DNA of 64,000 bases from a virus (lineage: Duplodnaviria > Caudoviricetes), in IMG/VR virus record IMGVR_UViG_2061766007_000586, positions 128,001 through 192,000 of that record; one strand, given 5' to 3'. Positions 52,844 to 60,760 of this stretch are shown piece by piece (position 1 is the stretch's first letter; each line of letters opens with the position of its first letter). The position numbers and the translations under genes were made by a program. Below the pieces are notes generated by a model. It did not search any database and was not told the DNA's origin. It saw nothing but the letters and a program-made list of their open reading frames with translations.

Positions 52844-52926
52844 TGGTGCTGAGGGCGGGACTCGAACCCGCATGGATTGCCCGGCAGATTTTAAGTCTGC
52901 TGCGTATGCCATTTCGCCACCCCAGC
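52844..52926 (-). tRNA. tRNA-Leu(TAA)
   Basis: GCTGGGG/CCTCAGC acceptor, anticodon arm GCAGA-CTTAAAA-TCTGC, variable arm, GCGGG-TTCGAGT-CCCGC, ACCA end. Confidence 0.95.
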
Positions 52927-52941
52927 ATCAATTATATTAGA

Positions 52942-52951
52942 GTTATATATA
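52942..52951 (-). promoter_or_regulatory. Phage early-type promoter (TATATATAAC) for the tRNA cluster
   Basis: TATATATNNC match ~15 nt upstream of tRNA-Leu. Confidence 0.65.
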
Positions 52952-55030: not shown

Positions 55031-56416
55031 TTAATCTATTAATCCACGTTTTTTGTAATTTTGATTTGCATTATGATCTGCAATTTTTTTGATTATACGA
55101 TTTGATTGTGTATATCCAATCGATTTTGCACGTTGAAGAATAGCAGCTTGCGTTTTACGAAGCCATTCATAAAATGGATTATCTTTTGATATTTCACCGC
55201 TTTTTATACGTTTTATAAATTCTATAGCTGCTTTATCTGCCATTTTTTCCATCGGATGTTCGTCATGCTCTTTCATGCTTGTCATATTAGCTGTGTTAAA
55301 TACTTTTCCATGCATTGCTTGTGACACATGCATAAATTCATGAATTATAGTGGCAGCAATTTCATTAAGATTTTTATTAAAAAATTCATTTAAATTAACG
55401 CTACAAAGATAACCGACACCTTTTTTTCCACCAGCAGTCCCACTATGATTAGAGTATGAATCTGAAAAAACACACAATCTATTTACTCTTAAATCTCCAT
55501 GACCTTTTGTATTATTCCAAAATTGTTGCATAAAATTTGCTAAATATTTTCTAACATTTTGAGGAATGTCATAGAAATATAAGAATCCTTTTTCGTTTTC
55601 TTTTCCTGTTAAAGATACTTGTTCGGTATCTAATGTTTTTCTTGCATACTTAAACCATATATTAATAGCATGTTGTCTTTTTTGCACATCAGTTAATAGA
55701 CTACGAATTTCTTTTTCAAATTCAGCAGCATTTGTAACTTGTGTGAATGGTATTGTTTCATTAATATTTTTACTTAATTCTGCATAAAATTTGTTATATG
55801 AATTCTGGAAAGATCCAGCTTTATTTGTGAGAATTTCTTTAATTTTTGATTTACATGTATTGAGTACTTGAATTTCAGCTTCTGCTGATGTAATAGCATT
55901 TTTAAATTCATTAGATACAAAAAATCCAAATGGTGGATCTGGTGGTTCAGAAGGAGCTTTAGATATAGATTGTTGAACTTCTGTGACGGTTTCGTATTTT
56001 TTTACATACTTATTAGTTATTGCTTCTAATGAATCACTTGAAGGTTTCCTTTTTAGTATCCAACTTCCTGATGTTGTTAATTCTTTAAGCCAATTTGTCA
56101 TTAAGCTTGCTCTTGCTTTAAAAGCTTTATTTGCATTTCTTTTCGTTTTAAATTTACGAAAGATTGTTGGAATACCGTTTTTAAGAATCGTTAATATATA
56201 TTTACTTGCAACAATAGCTTTATTGATCAAATCAATAATAAAATCTTTTGCTTTCTGTGTAAATTGTTTTAAATCTTCTACAGAACACTCAATATTTGAA
56301 TATAATCTATTACAAAGATCAGCAACGCAATCTAATCTAATCATTAAACTATCTAGATAAACTAAATCCTCATCTACATAAATAGATTGGTTATTAATTG
56401 CATTTAAATCTAACAT
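55031..56416 (-). CDS. Putative head-packaged protein with C-terminal HExxH metallopeptidase-like domain
   Basis: MLDLNAI..., CSVE site, TIIHEFMHVSQ, EHPMEKMA. Confidence 0.6.
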   Translation of the reverse strand: MLDLNAINNQSIYVDEDLVYLDSLMIRLDCVADLCNRLYSNIECSVEDLKQFTQKAKDFIIDLINKAIVASKYILTILKNGIPTIFRKFKTKRNANKAFKARASLMTNWLKELTTSGSWILKRKPSSDSLEAITNKYVKKYETVTEVQQSISKAPSEPPDPPFGFFVSNEFKNAITSAEAEIQVLNTCKSKIKEILTNKAGSFQNSYNKFYAELSKNINETIPFTQVTNAAEFEKEIRSLLTDVQKRQHAINIWFKYARKTLDTEQVSLTGKENEKGFLYFYDIPQNVRKYLANFMQQFWNNTKGHGDLRVNRLCVFSDSYSNHSGTAGGKKGVGYLCSVNLNEFFNKNLNEIAATIIHEFMHVSQAMHGKVFNTANMTSMKEHDEHPMEKMADKAAIEFIKRIKSGEISKDNPFYEWLRKTQAAILQRAKSIGYTQSNRIIKKIADHNANQNYKKRGLID

Positions 56417-56982: not shown

Positions 56983-57056
56983 ATTTTTAAGTTCCTTATT
57001 ATAATTATAGTAAAAGAAGTAGCATAAAATAATTGAAGCCAATGAAATAAAAAAGA

Positions 57057-57081
57057 AGCGTACGGATTATATCCGTACGCT
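57057..57081 (-). terminator. Intrinsic terminator
   Basis: AGCGTACGGAT/ATCCGTACGCT plus T-run. Confidence 0.75.
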
Positions 57082-57092
57082 CCTGATATTAA

Positions 57093-57449
57093 TTATGCTA
57101 CAACCGATCTATCATTACCAACGTAATGAGCAAATCGATTGAAGAATTTTTTGCAGGCATTCTGCCTAGCTTGTGTTTTATATTTTCCGTAGCCAACGAA
57201 TACAAGTCCACCGATGCGAATTGTACATTTTGATTTTGATGTAGTGAATCGCATGTAATCGTTTATATTCTTACCAAACATTTTCTGGAATAGGATCTCA
57301 CTCATGATTACTGTAGCTGATTCGCAGCTGATTGGTTCAGGAGCAAGTTCATTAGCTGCTTGAATTGCATGATCAAAATCGTGTGCAGATATTTTAGCAG
57401 CTTTTTCAATTCCTTTTTCAATGCATGGTGAATATATACATGTATTCAT
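57093..57449 (-). CDS. dsRNA-binding-motif (dsRBD)-like protein
   Basis: CTIRIGGLVFVGYGKYKTQARQNAC matches the dsRBM G-x-G-x-(S)K-K-x-A pattern. Confidence 0.55.
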   Translation of the reverse strand: MNTCIYSPCIEKGIEKAAKISAHDFDHAIQAANELAPEPISCESATVIMSEILFQKMFGKNINDYMRFTTSKSKCTIRIGGLVFVGYGKYKTQARQNACKKFFNRFAHYVGNDRSVVA

Positions 57450-57700
57450 TCGTAGAATTCCTTTCGAAGCTTTTTGAGTATTTGAAACTGGTATTGCCTG
57501 ACACTTTCTATAGTAGCAACTTTCAAACGCAAAGCTTCTTTTGTCTCACGTAATGAATAATATTTACCATAGAATCCGAATCTCAGTTTAATCAGTTCTT
57601 GTTCGACTAACGGTAGCTTATCAAGCAATTCGAACATACGTTCATAATCATCTGACTTACATACCAACTCCATTCCATCGATGATGAAATCGTCTGACAT
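57446..57700 (-). CDS. Stand-alone sigma70 region 4-like protein
   Basis: LDKLPLVEQELIKLRFG...YSLRE...TIESVRQYQFQILKKLRK mirrors the RpoD region 4 consensus. Confidence 0.75.
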   Translation of the reverse strand: MSDDFIIDGMELVCKSDDYERMFELLDKLPLVEQELIKLRFGFYGKYYSLRETKEALRLKVATIESVRQYQFQILKKLRKEFYE

Positions 57701-57726
57701 AATTTGCTCCTTGTTTTGTCAGAGAA

Positions 57727-57760
57727 AAGAGATATGACATTTTTACATGTCATATCTCTT
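57727..57760 (-). terminator. Hairpin/terminator between early genes
   Basis: AAGAGATATGACAT/ATGTCATATCTCTT. Confidence 0.6.
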
Positions 57761-57772
57761 GTGTTAGTATGA

Positions 57773-58441
57773 TTAGACAGCCGTCCAAGGACGCCAGCTA
57801 TTGTAATCTTTGTCAGTGAACTGTGAAGACAGAACAACAAAACTGTTCCGAATCTTCTGAACCAACTGTGCATATGCCGTTCCGTTCACGTCAAGCTGAT
57901 TTCTGAAATCAACATTGTGATTCTGACTGACATGAGAATTCAGTGACTTCCCATAATTGATAATTGAGCATCCTTTGCACGGAAGTAAAGAAGATCCGTC
58001 TCCGATTCCAACATCTTCGAGTTTCGAACCGCCCTTCATGCGAATCTTGGTATCAGTGATATACATATTCTTGATGGAACTACCACCATTCATACGGATC
58101 TCAGATCCGAATTCTCCGATGATATTTTCCACCGATGCTCCGTTCTGGAGAATCAGCCATCCACCACGCAGCCAAAGATTGTGAATAGAAAGCTTTTTGT
58201 TACCACCAATGATTTCGACGATAGAATTCGGTCCGATAAAGAGATCATTGATCTCGCCGCTTCTTACCTGAAGGAATGTTCTTCCTGCAAGTTCACAAAC
58301 ATTGAGACTTCCACCAAGCATGCAGATTTCTCGTTTGTCGAACACAACATGATCGAATGTTGTTCGTTTGATGACTTCTTTGTCAGTGGTGAGTACGTGG
58401 TCTTTCAGTGAAGACATCACGCGTTCGTTGGGAGTGAACAT
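57773..58441 (-). CDS. Beta-helix repeat protein (AIDA-like)
   Basis: LWLRGGWLIL, IRMNGGSSI, IRMKGGSKL repeats. Confidence 0.7.
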   Translation of the reverse strand: MFTPNERVMSSLKDHVLTTDKEVIKRTTFDHVVFDKREICMLGGSLNVCELAGRTFLQVRSGEINDLFIGPNSIVEIIGGNKKLSIHNLWLRGGWLILQNGASVENIIGEFGSEIRMNGGSSIKNMYITDTKIRMKGGSKLEDVGIGDGSSLLPCKGCSIINYGKSLNSHVSQNHNVDFRNQLDVNGTAYAQLVQKIRNSFVVLSSQFTDKDYNSWRPWTAV

Positions 58442-58890
58442 TTTAATTCTCCTTTATATGGGGTTTGTGTTTTGAGAGTTTTACTATAAAACTCTGTATG
58501 ATGTAACGGTTTAATGTTTAATTTTGTATTAAGTAAATTTTCTGTCGTTTCTAACATTATAGATATTACAGATTTAATAAATTTTTGACGTGGGTTGTAT
58601 TTGTTAACAATATTGTCACCAATTTGTATTTTAGGGTTAAGTTTTCTTGCATCTTTAATCCAAACTTGATCAGAGTTATTTGGTTTTGGTATAAAGTTTA
58701 CAACTTTCTGATTGGAATAGAATCTCATGTCACCAGTTTTTGGATCAATTGTGACATCACAGATTTTTCCATCTTTTAATTGGTTAATTAAATCTTTTCT
58801 GTAAATATCAATTAACTCTTTACGAGTATATTTCCAGAGTAAACTGATTTCAATGATATCAAGCATCTTGATAAGATTCGGATTTTCCAT
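58417..58890 (-). CDS. NusA N-terminal-domain-like protein
   Basis: VTIDPKTGDMRFY...VWIKDARKLNPKIQIGDNI matches the NusA NTD; S1 and KH domains absent. Confidence 0.7.
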   Translation of the reverse strand: MENPNLIKMLDIIEISLLWKYTRKELIDIYRKDLINQLKDGKICDVTIDPKTGDMRFYSNQKVVNFIPKPNNSDQVWIKDARKLNPKIQIGDNIVNKYNPRQKFIKSVISIMLETTENLLNTKLNIKPLHHTEFYSKTLKTQTPYKGELKCSLPTNA

Positions 58891-58925
58891 AATGATTCTC
58901 CTTATGCTATGAGGGTTTCATGTTA

Positions 58926-58935
58926 GTTATATATA
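58926..58935 (-). promoter_or_regulatory. Phage early-type promoter (TATATATAAC)
   Basis: TATATATNNC match upstream of the NusA-like gene. Confidence 0.6.
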
Positions 58936-58957: not shown

Positions 58958-59851
58958 ATGATTCATATATGCTTAGCGACAGATTTCAATAATGTTCAGC
59001 TGTGTTGTGAATGTATTCATGATACCATTATGACAAAAAATCCAGATACAGAAATTACGTTTTATGTATTATTGGATAGTGTAAAAAATTCGCAGATATT
59101 TGATCGATTTAATGAATTAGATCAAATTAAAGTTATACCTATTTTTTCTAGTTCATATCAACTTATTACAAAGGGTGCAAAAATAAACGGTATAGCATAT
59201 TGGCTTACAGCAACCACATATCTACGTTACATAATTCCTTCTTTACCGGAATTACAAGATGTTGATAGAGTTCTTTATCTTGATACTGATATGTTAGCTT
59301 TAAGGGATTTGTCAAATATTTATAATTATGATTTGCATGATAATTTGATTGGTGGTGTAAAAAATTCAACTTATATCAGACACTCTTATAAAGGAAAACT
59401 TTCTTTTGTAGGATCTCTAGAAGGCCGTGTTATTAATGCTGGTGTAATTTTAATGGATTTAAATAAATTGAGAGAATTTGACTTTACAAAAAAATGTATT
59501 GATTTTACCAGAGAATGTGGTATGGATGATGAAATAGTTGTCAATCAAATTTGTAAAAATAAAATACAGTTTATGGATCCTACTATGAACATTCCGTACA
59601 CAATGATTGTTTATAGACATAAAAATATGAACGATATCGATTGCTGGAATGCTTTTCATAATACTTCGTTTACATCTATTAATGATTTGGTGTGTTCTAG
59701 TTATTTATTACACTTTATAACTGATAAAAAAGCACAGTTAAATTTTCCAAAATTAAAAGCAATACATGAATCAAGATATCAAAGATTTAAAAATTTTGTT
59801 GAAACTGGAATTATCCAGAAAGAAGACATTCTTCCTCTTGTAACTTTATAA
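58958..59851 (+). CDS. Glycosyltransferase family 8
   Basis: IHICLATD, TYLRY, RVLYLDTD (DxD), INAGVILMDL, DDEIVVN, LLHF. Confidence 0.9.
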   Translation: MIHICLATDFNNVQLCCECIHDTIMTKNPDTEITFYVLLDSVKNSQIFDRFNELDQIKVIPIFSSSYQLITKGAKINGIAYWLTATTYLRYIIPSLPELQDVDRVLYLDTDMLALRDLSNIYNYDLHDNLIGGVKNSTYIRHSYKGKLSFVGSLEGRVINAGVILMDLNKLREFDFTKKCIDFTRECGMDDEIVVNQICKNKIQFMDPTMNIPYTMIVYRHKNMNDIDCWNAFHNTSFTSINDLVCSSYLLHFITDKKAQLNFPKLKAIHESRYQRFKNFVETGIIQKEDILPLVTL

Positions 59852-59872
59852 TTTTAATATAAGGCAATTAAA

Positions 59873-60760
59873 ATGAGCAAAATTCCTATTTGTTATTGTA
59901 CTAGCAAATATTACATTCCTTGGTTAAAAAGATCGATTTATGATCTTATTATTCGTAAGAATCCAGATACAGAATTAGATATTTATATTCTTCTAAATCA
60001 AGCTATACCTGATCCTGATTTTGAAAAATTTAATAAACTTGATAAAGTTCATGTAACAATTAAAGAGATGGATACAGCTATCGAGTTTCCTTATCATGCC
60101 CCACATCCCATGCCTTGGCTAGGAAAATTTAGATCATTAAATATGATTATTCCAGAATTGGATATCTTTAAAGATTTTGAAAGAGTCTTATATTTGGATC
60201 TTGACATGATGGCACGTAGAGATATCACTCCTATTTATGAAACTGATATCAAAGGTGCAGCATTAGGTATGGTTAAAGATTGGTTTTACTGCAGATATGT
60301 TGATCCTAAAAGCTATTTAACAGTTAGTAATACATACCAAAACGGTGTGATTATTATGGATCTTCCTAAGTTAAGAGAAAAACATTTTTCTCAACAATGC
60401 AGAATGAAAACACGTAGTTGTGGTACTGATATTGTGATAATTAATGAAGTTGCACATGATTATATTTGTTCACTTAGTCCAACTTATCAAATTCCATATT
60501 GGGATATTATTTTGGGTAATATACCGATGAAAGATATCAAAACTTGGAATTCAATGTTTGATACTAATTTTGAATCAATGCACGATTTAATTGATCAAAG
60601 TTATTTCTTTCATTGGTGTGGTGATAAAGATTATCGTTACAATATTGTTCCAATTTGTAAAAATATTGTTGATCAAGCACAAAAGCGTTTGGATAAATTT
60701 TTACAGACAGGTGTTGTCCAAGAATGGACAGATGAAGATGAACGTATTTTTGTTTATTAA
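59873..60760 (+). CDS. Glycosyltransferase family 8, paralog
   Basis: RVLYLDLD, QNGVIIMDL, FFHWCG. Confidence 0.9.
   Translation: MSKIPICYCTSKYYIPWLKRSIYDLIIRKNPDTELDIYILLNQAIPDPDFEKFNKLDKVHVTIKEMDTAIEFPYHAPHPMPWLGKFRSLNMIIPELDIFKDFERVLYLDLDMMARRDITPIYETDIKGAALGMVKDWFYCRYVDPKSYLTVSNTYQNGVIIMDLPKLREKHFSQQCRMKTRSCGTDIVIINEVAHDYICSLSPTYQIPYWDIILGNIPMKDIKTWNSMFDTNFESMHDLIDQSYFFHWCGDKDYRYNIVPICKNIVDQAQKRLDKFLQTGVVQEWTDEDERIFVY

What the first reader, a model, noticed from the sequence alone, without database searches (positions are those of the whole stretch)
57093..58935. Early operon of stand-alone host-transcription-factor domains: NusA-NTD, sigma region 4 and dsRBD
Seen: behind a TATATATAAC promoter lie a NusA N-terminal domain without S1/KH (58417..58890), a beta-helix protein, an 84-aa isolated sigma70 region 4 (57446..57700) and a dsRBD-like protein (57093..57449). 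Known: both NusA-NTD and sigma region 4 bind the beta-flap tip helix of bacterial RNAP, and phiKZ-like phages transcribe with their own RNAPs. Inference: two captured, truncated flap ligands could act as dominant-negative mimics, one blocking host initiation and the other deregulating pausing and termination. The dsRBD might target RNase III substrates or dsRNA sensing. A hairpin at 57727-57760 may attenuate the distal genes.
Basis: partly seen in the sequence, partly recalled or inferred. Interest (0 to 1): 0.8.

Follow-up and report, generated by a model that had tools for sequence, protein, structure and literature searches.

The report
Phage NusA and sigma domain fragments
A giant rumen phage with its own RNA polymerases encodes free pieces of two host transcription factors: a conserved sigma region-4 domain that probably interferes with the host polymerase, and a rare, strain-specific NusA N-terminal domain that has lost its pause-promoting residues; no binding has been shown for either.

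Summary
The four ORFs, the phiKZ-type early promoter and the hairpin are real. NusA-NTD is confirmed (Pfam 41.8 bits; AlphaFold/Foldseek). So is sigma region 4, which is closest to alternative sigmas of Lentisphaeria, the probable host. The dsRBD is likely but unproven and lacks its GPxH loop.

Strain comparison splits the 'operon'. Sigma-4 and the dsRBD-like gene occur in every strain locus that covers them, under purifying selection (pN/pS 0.075 and 0.097). NusA-NTD sits in a swapped 1.14-kb cassette that is absent from all nine other loci spanning the slot. It has no phage relatives, has lost the R104/K111 pair needed for pausing, and keeps only one of four flap-binding residues.

Best reading: an early unit with a selected sigma-4 mimic acting on host polymerase, plus an optional pause-dead NusA domain of uncertain use. 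A fixed two-pronged attack on the flap is not supported, and binding could not be modelled. This scan has already noted free sigma-4 domains in other phages. I found no report of a free phage NusA-NTD.

The parts
58926..58935 (-). phiKZ-type early (virion-RNAP) promoter motif TATATATAAC, kept in all strains that cover it
   Evidence: phiKZ motif TATATTAC in PMC7058600; early timing inferred
57761..58899 (-). Swappable cassette (NusA-NTD plus a divergent beta-helix allele). Other strains carry a ~100-nt leader and a 35%-identical beta-helix allele instead
   Evidence: (loose ends at 57760 and 58900)
58417..58890 (-). Stand-alone NusA N-terminal domain (residues ~1-124) with a ~30-residue tail; helix alpha4 motif degenerate; rare allele
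57773..58441 (-). 222-aa probable beta-helix protein; present in all strains as two allele classes
   Evidence: fold inferred, not modelled
57727..57760 (-). 14-bp intergenic hairpin; stem conserved, loop variable, weak U-tract; 3' boundary of the cassette
57446..57700 (-). 84-aa stand-alone sigma70-family region 4, closest to Lentisphaeria alternative sigmas; purifying selection
57093..57449 (-). 118-aa protein: N-terminal helices plus a dsRBD-like domain lacking the GPxH loop; overlaps the sigma-4 stop (ATGA); purifying selection
57054..57084 (-). Intrinsic terminator closing the unit (14-bp stem, U-run); one compensatory pair change in another strain
   Evidence: (57059 C>T with 57079 G>A)

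Best explanation
This is an early transcription unit of a phiKZ-like jumbo phage whose host is probably a rumen Lentisphaeria bacterium. It runs from a phage promoter (58935) to an intrinsic terminator (57054).

Shown: the conserved core is beta-helix gene, hairpin, sigma-4, dsRBD-like gene. In this strain the front 1.14 kb is a different cassette that adds a NusA N-terminal domain.

Inferred for sigma-4: it was cut from an alternative sigma factor and is kept by selection. It cannot open a promoter (no region 2). It most likely docks on the beta-flap tip of host RNA polymerase and competes there with host sigma region 4, which would dampen host transcription from -35-dependent promoters. The phage transcribes itself with its own enzymes.

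Inferred for NusA-NTD: it is an optional add-on. It keeps the fold but not the helix-alpha4 basic pair needed to stabilise pauses. If it binds host polymerase at all, it would displace NusA and reduce pausing and termination rather than enhance them. I put that at about 0.25; otherwise it is a diverged passenger or has another partner.

Inferred for the dsRBD-like protein: it is a selected, probably non-canonical domain, translationally coupled to sigma-4.
For: Phage RNAP subunits. Promoter and terminator.

Selection: pN/pS is 0.075 for sigma-4 (14 loci, p=6e-7) and 0.097 for the dsRBD-like gene (13 loci, p=2e-8), against 0.07 for the neighbouring kinase.

Origin of sigma-4: best hits are 250-290-aa complete sigmas of the Lentisphaeria class (40.7 bits, 43% identity). 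About half of 101 such genomes reach E<=1e-5, against 2 of 101 Clostridia. The phage protein keeps L29, E33, L39-R40-F41-G42, L75, L78 and T63-x-E65-x-x-R68-Q69.

Target: NusA-NTD and sigma region 4 both bind the flap tip and exclude each other (PMC7171158, PMC4357713).

Cassette swap: nine loci spanning the slot lack NusA. Runs X4 and X8 leave the sequence at 58900, and X8 and X17 leave it at 57760.

Pause residues: R104 and K111 are essential for pause activity (PMC4357713) and basic in 28 of 28 Lentisphaeria rows. The phage helix has no basic i,i+7 pair in any register.

Expression (weak hint): a contig from an RNA library covers beta-helix, sigma-4 and most of the dsRBD gene and starts 17 nt after the promoter motif.
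Against: No binding is shown for any of the proteins.

The sigma-4 helix-turn-helix has a 3-residue insertion and has lost conserved residues. It also keeps DNA-reading residues, which a pure flap plug would not need.

Of the NusA flap-binding residues F59, R61, E94 and Q96 (PMC4357713), only F59 is conservatively kept (Y58). The E/Q96 site is reversed to K97.

phiKZ changes host transcript levels very little (PMC5312081, Discussion), so global shut-off is not a family trait.

The host is inferred, not demonstrated: NrdD and NusA-NTD match Clostridia and Lentisphaeria equally.

The strains compared are very close and some loci share a study or haplotype.
Confidence: 0.45

Rival explanations
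1. Sigma-4 works away from the flap: as a DNA-binding repressor on -35 boxes of its parent sigma's regulon, or as a decoy for things that bind region 4 (anti-sigma factors, activators, 6S RNA, a defence sensor).
For: E65, R68 and Q69 of the recognition helix are invariant in phage and host rows. Three of the four amino-acid differences between strains lie at or just before the start of that helix (positions 62, 64, 66). The parent is an alternative sigma.
Against: The LRFG motif and L75/L78 are kept as well. The turn of the helix-turn-helix has a 3-residue insertion. Free region 4 binds DNA weakly (general knowledge).
Confidence: 0.25
2. One reading: a co-ordinated module of two dominant-negative flap ligands, one blocking initiation and one deregulating pausing and termination.
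For: Both domains are real and sit in one early unit. NusA-NTD lacks R104/K111, as a dominant negative would. Its DNA is identical in two samples, and its GC3 (0.24) matches the genome median (0.25).
Against: NusA-NTD is absent from nine of nine other spanning loci and has no relatives in three large searches. Its flap patch is altered. The two ligands would compete for one site (PMC4357713).
Confidence: 0.12
3. The NusA-NTD gene is a passenger on a cassette that was selected for its beta-helix allele. It is drifting or serves an unrelated partner, while sigma-4 and the dsRBD-like gene have their own roles. This reading can hold together with the best explanation.
For: It is a rare singleton, 16-29% identical to bacterial NTDs. 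The near-invariant FGRIAAQTA motif is lost. One low-depth contig has a +1 base in its tail. The beta-helix gene is what both cassette types share.
Against: It has an intact 157-codon frame, its own Shine-Dalgarno sequence and the first position behind a strong promoter. Core residues of helix 1, the sheet and the head are conserved. dN/dS could not be measured because there were no variants.
Confidence: 0.3
4. The proteins serve the phage's own expression: accessory factors of the phage RNAPs, with the dsRBD-like protein binding one of the phage's structured RNAs.
For: The phage has its own RNAPs. The phiKZ gp68 C-terminal domain corresponds to sigma region 4 (PMC7618050). Earlier scan notes report many structured RNAs in this genome (unchecked).
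Against: Sigma-4 resembles host sigmas at 43% identity rather than phage specificity factors. The flap region of the phage beta subunit aligns only weakly to the host flap (E=0.1; inconclusive). The GPxH loop of the dsRBD is missing.
Confidence: 0.1

Closest known systems
NusA N-terminal domain (Pfam PF08529; PDB 2MT4, 2KWP, 6FLQ; PMC4357713, PMC5842316)
   Same: Same fold and order of elements. Core positions M55, Y58, V63-V64, A81, P86, G91 and the basic pair R31-K32 are kept. An isolated NTD is known to be sufficient for pause enhancement.
   Different: Encoded alone by a phage, without S1 or KH. The FGRIAAQTA(K/R)Q helix is degenerate. Three of four flap-binding residues are changed. Net charge is +6 against a host median of -2.
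Region 4 of sigma70-family factors (PF04545; PDB 4G8X), nearest: 250-290-aa alternative sigmas of Lentisphaeria
   Same: LRFG motif, T-x-E-x-x-R-Q recognition helix and the same C-terminal end point; up to 43% identity.
   Different: No regions 1-3, so it cannot melt DNA. It has a 3-residue insertion in the turn, and one helix arginine is S in most strains.
Phage proteins acting at the flap or sigma-4 interface: T4 AsiA, Xp10 P7, P23-45 gp39, lambda Q
   Same: Phage-encoded small proteins that act at or near the beta flap or sigma region 4 to alter initiation or termination (PMC5312081, PMC7171158; abstract of PMC3985653).
   Different: Those have unrelated folds, and their phages rely on host RNAP for at least some gene classes. 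Here the candidates are copies of the host's own domains in a phage with its own RNAPs. Function is untested.
dsRBD (PF00035; RNase III C-terminal domain, RDE-4, TRBP)
   Same: Helix-three strands-helix pattern and a G-x-G-K-x-K-x-x-A motif entering the last helix.
   Different: No GPxH loop, a weak helix-1 motif, ~40 extra N-terminal residues, and no significant profile match.
Longer NusA match in the 636-kb uncultured phage LR756504.1
   Same: A NusA homologue in a huge phage record (28% identity to E. coli residues 16-333).
   Different: It covers NTD, S1 and KH rather than a free NTD. Its context was not examined.

Membership tests
NusA N-terminal domain (PF08529) | Profile score above the curated cut-off | tested here: met
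   41.8 vs 23.8 bits
NusA N-terminal domain (PF08529) | NusA-NTD fold | tested here: met
   AF2 pLDDT 79; Foldseek 2MT4 E=2.8e-5, TM 0.55; model guided by a NusA alignment
NusA (functional elongation factor) | S1 and KH domains in the same chain | tested here: not met
   157-aa ORF; no KH_5 match in the genome
NusA (functional elongation factor) | R104 and K111 on helix alpha4, needed for pause enhancement | tested here: not met
   No basic i,i+7 pair in any register; basic in 28 of 28 Lentisphaeria rows (PMC4357713)
NusA (functional elongation factor) | Flap-binding patch F59/R61/E94/Q96 | tested here: inconclusive
   Y58/N60/V95/K97 in the phage; positions 61 and 94 also vary in hosts
NusA (functional elongation factor) | Binds the beta-flap tip helix | not testable with these tools
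Sigma70 region 4 (PF04545) | Profile match over the whole domain | tested here: met
   Model positions 1-50; 22.4 bits in the window allele (cut-off 24.1), 25.9 in the L019 allele
Sigma factor | Region 2 (core binding, -10 melting) | tested here: not met
   84-aa ORF; no PF04542 match in the genome
Sigma70 region 4 (PF04545) | Binds the flap tip or -35 DNA | not testable with these tools
   Residues partly kept; no binding assay or complex model
dsRBD (PF00035) | Profile match or confident fold match | tested here: inconclusive
   No Pfam hit; ESM 0.90; Foldseek best E=0.14; VIA best Z 4.2 to other folds; HMM of five host dsRBDs ranks it first of 264 ORFs, E=0.03
dsRBD, canonical RNA-binding type | GPxH loop between strands 1 and 2 | tested here: not met
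   Loop deleted in the alignment to five host dsRBDs
phiKZ-like jumbo phage | Own split multisubunit RNA polymerase | tested here: met
Nucleus-forming phages (Chimalliviridae) | Chimallin gene | tested here: inconclusive
   The one candidate tried (563 aa, beside an RNAP subunit) had no PHROG hit

The most novel reading that the evidence does not exclude
A phage that does not need host RNAP encodes a natural pause-dead NusA N-terminal domain that occupies the host flap and displaces NusA, alongside a free sigma region 4 that competes at initiation. Together they would be a host-domain mimicry route to deregulate host transcription, with the NusA mimic as an exchangeable module.
Probability: 0.15. 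Interest if true: 0.75.

Novelty: new variant of a known kind. Interest (0 to 1): 0.42.

Why it matters
Known phage modulators of the RNAP flap use unrelated folds. A free, selected copy of the host's own sigma region 4 in a phage with its own polymerases would show that such phages still tune host transcription, by mimicry. A natural NusA-NTD lacking R104/K111 would separate flap binding from pause enhancement and could serve as a NusA antagonist. Both are small soluble proteins testable on E. coli or B. subtilis RNAP. The weight is limited because the NusA gene is a rare singleton with an altered binding patch and the probable host is uncultured.

Tried and rejected

Two strong phmmer hits to the NusA ORF (P0002, P0003) are repetitive YadA-type adhesins and were rejected as repeat-summed artefacts.

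Searches for relatives found nothing beyond near-identical strains: IMG/VR with NusA-NTD, kinase, beta-helix, RNAP beta, the 510-aa gene and a NusA alignment, and cultured phages. The eight viral sigma-4 matches lie in 194-326-aa ORFs, not free domains.

A recoded stop or split gene was considered. Code 11 already covers 91.5% of the genome, and no partner domains were found.

The donor of NusA-NTD is unresolved: about 28 bits to both Lentisphaeria and Clostridia. The ESM Atlas gave nothing for NusA-NTD. The dsRBD-like and beta-helix proteins found no match in the bacterial genomes searched, and the beta-helix profile found no paralogue in the phage genome. PADLOC: no hits.

Whether the phage RNAP lacks a flap-tip helix is inconclusive. 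Contigs in RNA libraries cannot show transcript ends or levels, so co-transcription across the hairpin is only hinted. Literature searches found no phage-encoded NusA-NTD, within the limits of that library. Searches were errors or refusals.

Full report
**Context.** The window lies in a 318,604-nt virus record. The matching public runs are bovine gut metagenomes. The phage encodes phiKZ-type split RNA polymerase subunits and reads with code 11. The host is probably a Lentisphaeria bacterium. The lead came from earlier scan notes. My own support is the sigma-4 comparison below; NrdD is 78-80% identical to both Lentisphaeria and Clostridia, so the host is not settled.

**Observation.** All four minus-strand ORFs exist as described. 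58417..58890 is a NusA N-terminal domain: Pfam 41.8 bits, T. maritima NusA E=8e-4, and an AF2 model with pLDDT 79 whose top 16 Foldseek rows are NusA (alignment-guided, so partly circular). 57446..57700 is sigma region 4 over the whole Pfam model, just under the cut-off; another strain's allele passes it. No region 2 or KH domain was found elsewhere in the genome.

57093..57449 is probably dsRBD-like. ESM features score 0.90, the secondary structure fits, dsRBDs recur among weak Foldseek rows, and a profile of five host dsRBDs ranks it first of 264 phage ORFs at E=0.03. No search is significant, and the GPxH loop is missing. The 222-aa ORF has only weak matches, all to beta-helical proteins.

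The promoter motif belongs to a genome-wide TATATAT(T/A)AC family upstream of minus-strand genes (5 in the window against 0.62 expected), like the phiKZ motif TATATTAC (PMC7058600). A strong terminator closes the unit at 57084-57054, with one compensatory pair change in another strain. The internal hairpin is real (z -4.5) and its stem is conserved, but its U-tract is poor, especially in other strains, and 27 such stems occur between co-directional genes. Attenuation is possible but not shown.

**Strains change the picture.** Near-identical phages from many samples keep the order GT8 pair, promoter, beta-helix, hairpin, sigma-4, dsRBD-like, kinase. All nine other loci that span promoter to beta-helix (L008-L014, L016, L019) lack NusA-NTD. 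They have a ~100-nt leader and a beta-helix allele only 34-37% identical to the window's, and a NusA profile finds nothing in them. Read-laying shows the same breakpoints at 58900 and 57760 in independent studies.

The NusA cassette was seen only in the source sample, in one other run where the NusA gene is identical at DNA level, and as a short piece in a third, which carries a +1 base in the tail at low depth. It has no relatives among 5.8 billion clustered proteins or 1.84 billion representatives. In contrast, sigma-4 shows 13 synonymous against 4 non-synonymous codon alleles (pN/pS 0.075) and the dsRBD-like gene 19 against 7 (0.097), like the kinase control (0.07). Some loci share haplotypes or studies, so the counts are not fully independent.

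A 1,389-nt contig from an RNA library covers the common beta-helix allele, the hairpin, sigma-4 and most of the dsRBD-like gene at depth 19.8. A contig of the same length and layout (L198, which I take to be the same record) begins 17 nt after the promoter motif. This fits one transcript, but contigs cannot prove it.

**Anatomy.** Sigma-4 is closest to complete 250-290-aa sigmas of the class centred on a Lentisphaerae MAG (40.7 bits, 43%; about half of 101 genomes at E<=1e-5) and far less to Clostridia (2 of 101). It ends where those sigmas end. It keeps L29, E33, LRFG, L75, L78 and T63/E65/R68/Q69, with a 3-residue insertion in the turn. From memory, the F of LRFG and L78 correspond to flap-contacting residues of sigma70; I did not test this.

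NusA-NTD keeps helix 1 hydrophobics, R31-K32, the sheet and the head. It has lost the FGRIAAQTA(K/R)Q motif. R104 and K111 are each essential for pause activity (PMC4357713) and are basic in 28 of 28 Lentisphaeria rows. The phage helix has no basic pair seven residues apart in any register. Of the four residues that drive flap binding in that paper, F59 is Y, R61 is N, E94 is V and Q96 (E in 27 of 28 hosts) is K. The flap tip helix inserts among helices 1, 2 and 4 (PMC5842316), and helices 2 and 4 are the most diverged here. So the protein is very likely pause-dead, and whether it still binds is open.

**Mechanism.** Shown: a promoter-to-terminator unit with a selected sigma-4 and dsRBD-like pair and an exchangeable front cassette. 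Inferred (0.45): free sigma-4 acts on host RNAP at the flap and trims host transcription. Rivals are a DNA repressor or decoy (0.25), a co-ordinated dual mimic (0.12) and a phage-internal role (0.1). Separately, NusA-NTD may be a passenger (0.3) or a NusA antagonist (about 0.25). One caution: phiKZ barely changes host transcript levels (PMC5312081), although several phiKZ proteins co-sediment with host RNAP (PMC10914614).

**Comparison and novelty.** The unit would work like known phage modulators of the flap and sigma-4 interface, but by copying host domains. The proteins are not a sigma factor and not a NusA, since defining parts were tested and are absent. Earlier scan notes describe free sigma-4 domains in other phages (e1-5379392, e1-1939459, e1-4465392, unchecked), so that part recurs. 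I found no paper or scan note on a free phage NusA-NTD. A longer NusA match exists in one 636-kb phage record.

**Verdict.** Real domains, a real early unit, and an over-read module. New variant of a known kind; interest 0.42.

Noticed in passing
window 55031-56416 (-); L009:6288-9148; L011:6288-8713: The 461-aa gene after the kinase has an HExxH motif (weak SprT-like match) and varies from 461 to 478 aa between strains. L009 has two such ORFs in tandem (477 and 461 aa), and L011 appears to as well.
   Followed up: no
L001:4120-8268 (-) (genome 300119-304267): A 1382-aa RNAP ORF matches two different PHROG RNAP subunit families end to end and spans two or three genes in Pseudomonas phiKZ-like phages: an apparent subunit fusion.
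   Followed up: partly
window 52844-52951 (-): tRNA-Leu(TAA) sits directly behind its own TATATATAAC motif.
   Followed up: no
L022:237-2633 (-) (genome 73736-76132): Class III NrdD is 78-80% identical to enzymes of gut Lentisphaeria and Clostridia, which points to recent exchange.
   Followed up: partly
L019:935-1189, L020, L021: A sigma-4 allele with two changes that bring the recognition helix closer to the sigma consensus (TTERVRQ against TIESVRQ). Three of the four amino-acid differences among strains fall at positions 62-66.
   Followed up: partly
window 58958-60760 (+): Two tandem GT8 glycosyltransferases start 23 nt beyond the promoter motif, divergent from the unit, and are conserved in all strains that cover them.
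   Followed up: no
LR756504.1:304731-305702 (hit H35): An uncultured 636-kb phage record holds a divergent NusA homologue (28% identity, E. coli residues 16-333).
   Followed up: no
L016:590-690: In the common allele, the ~100-nt leader between promoter and beta-helix gene folds into several small hairpins (z -1.2, not significant).
   Followed up: partly
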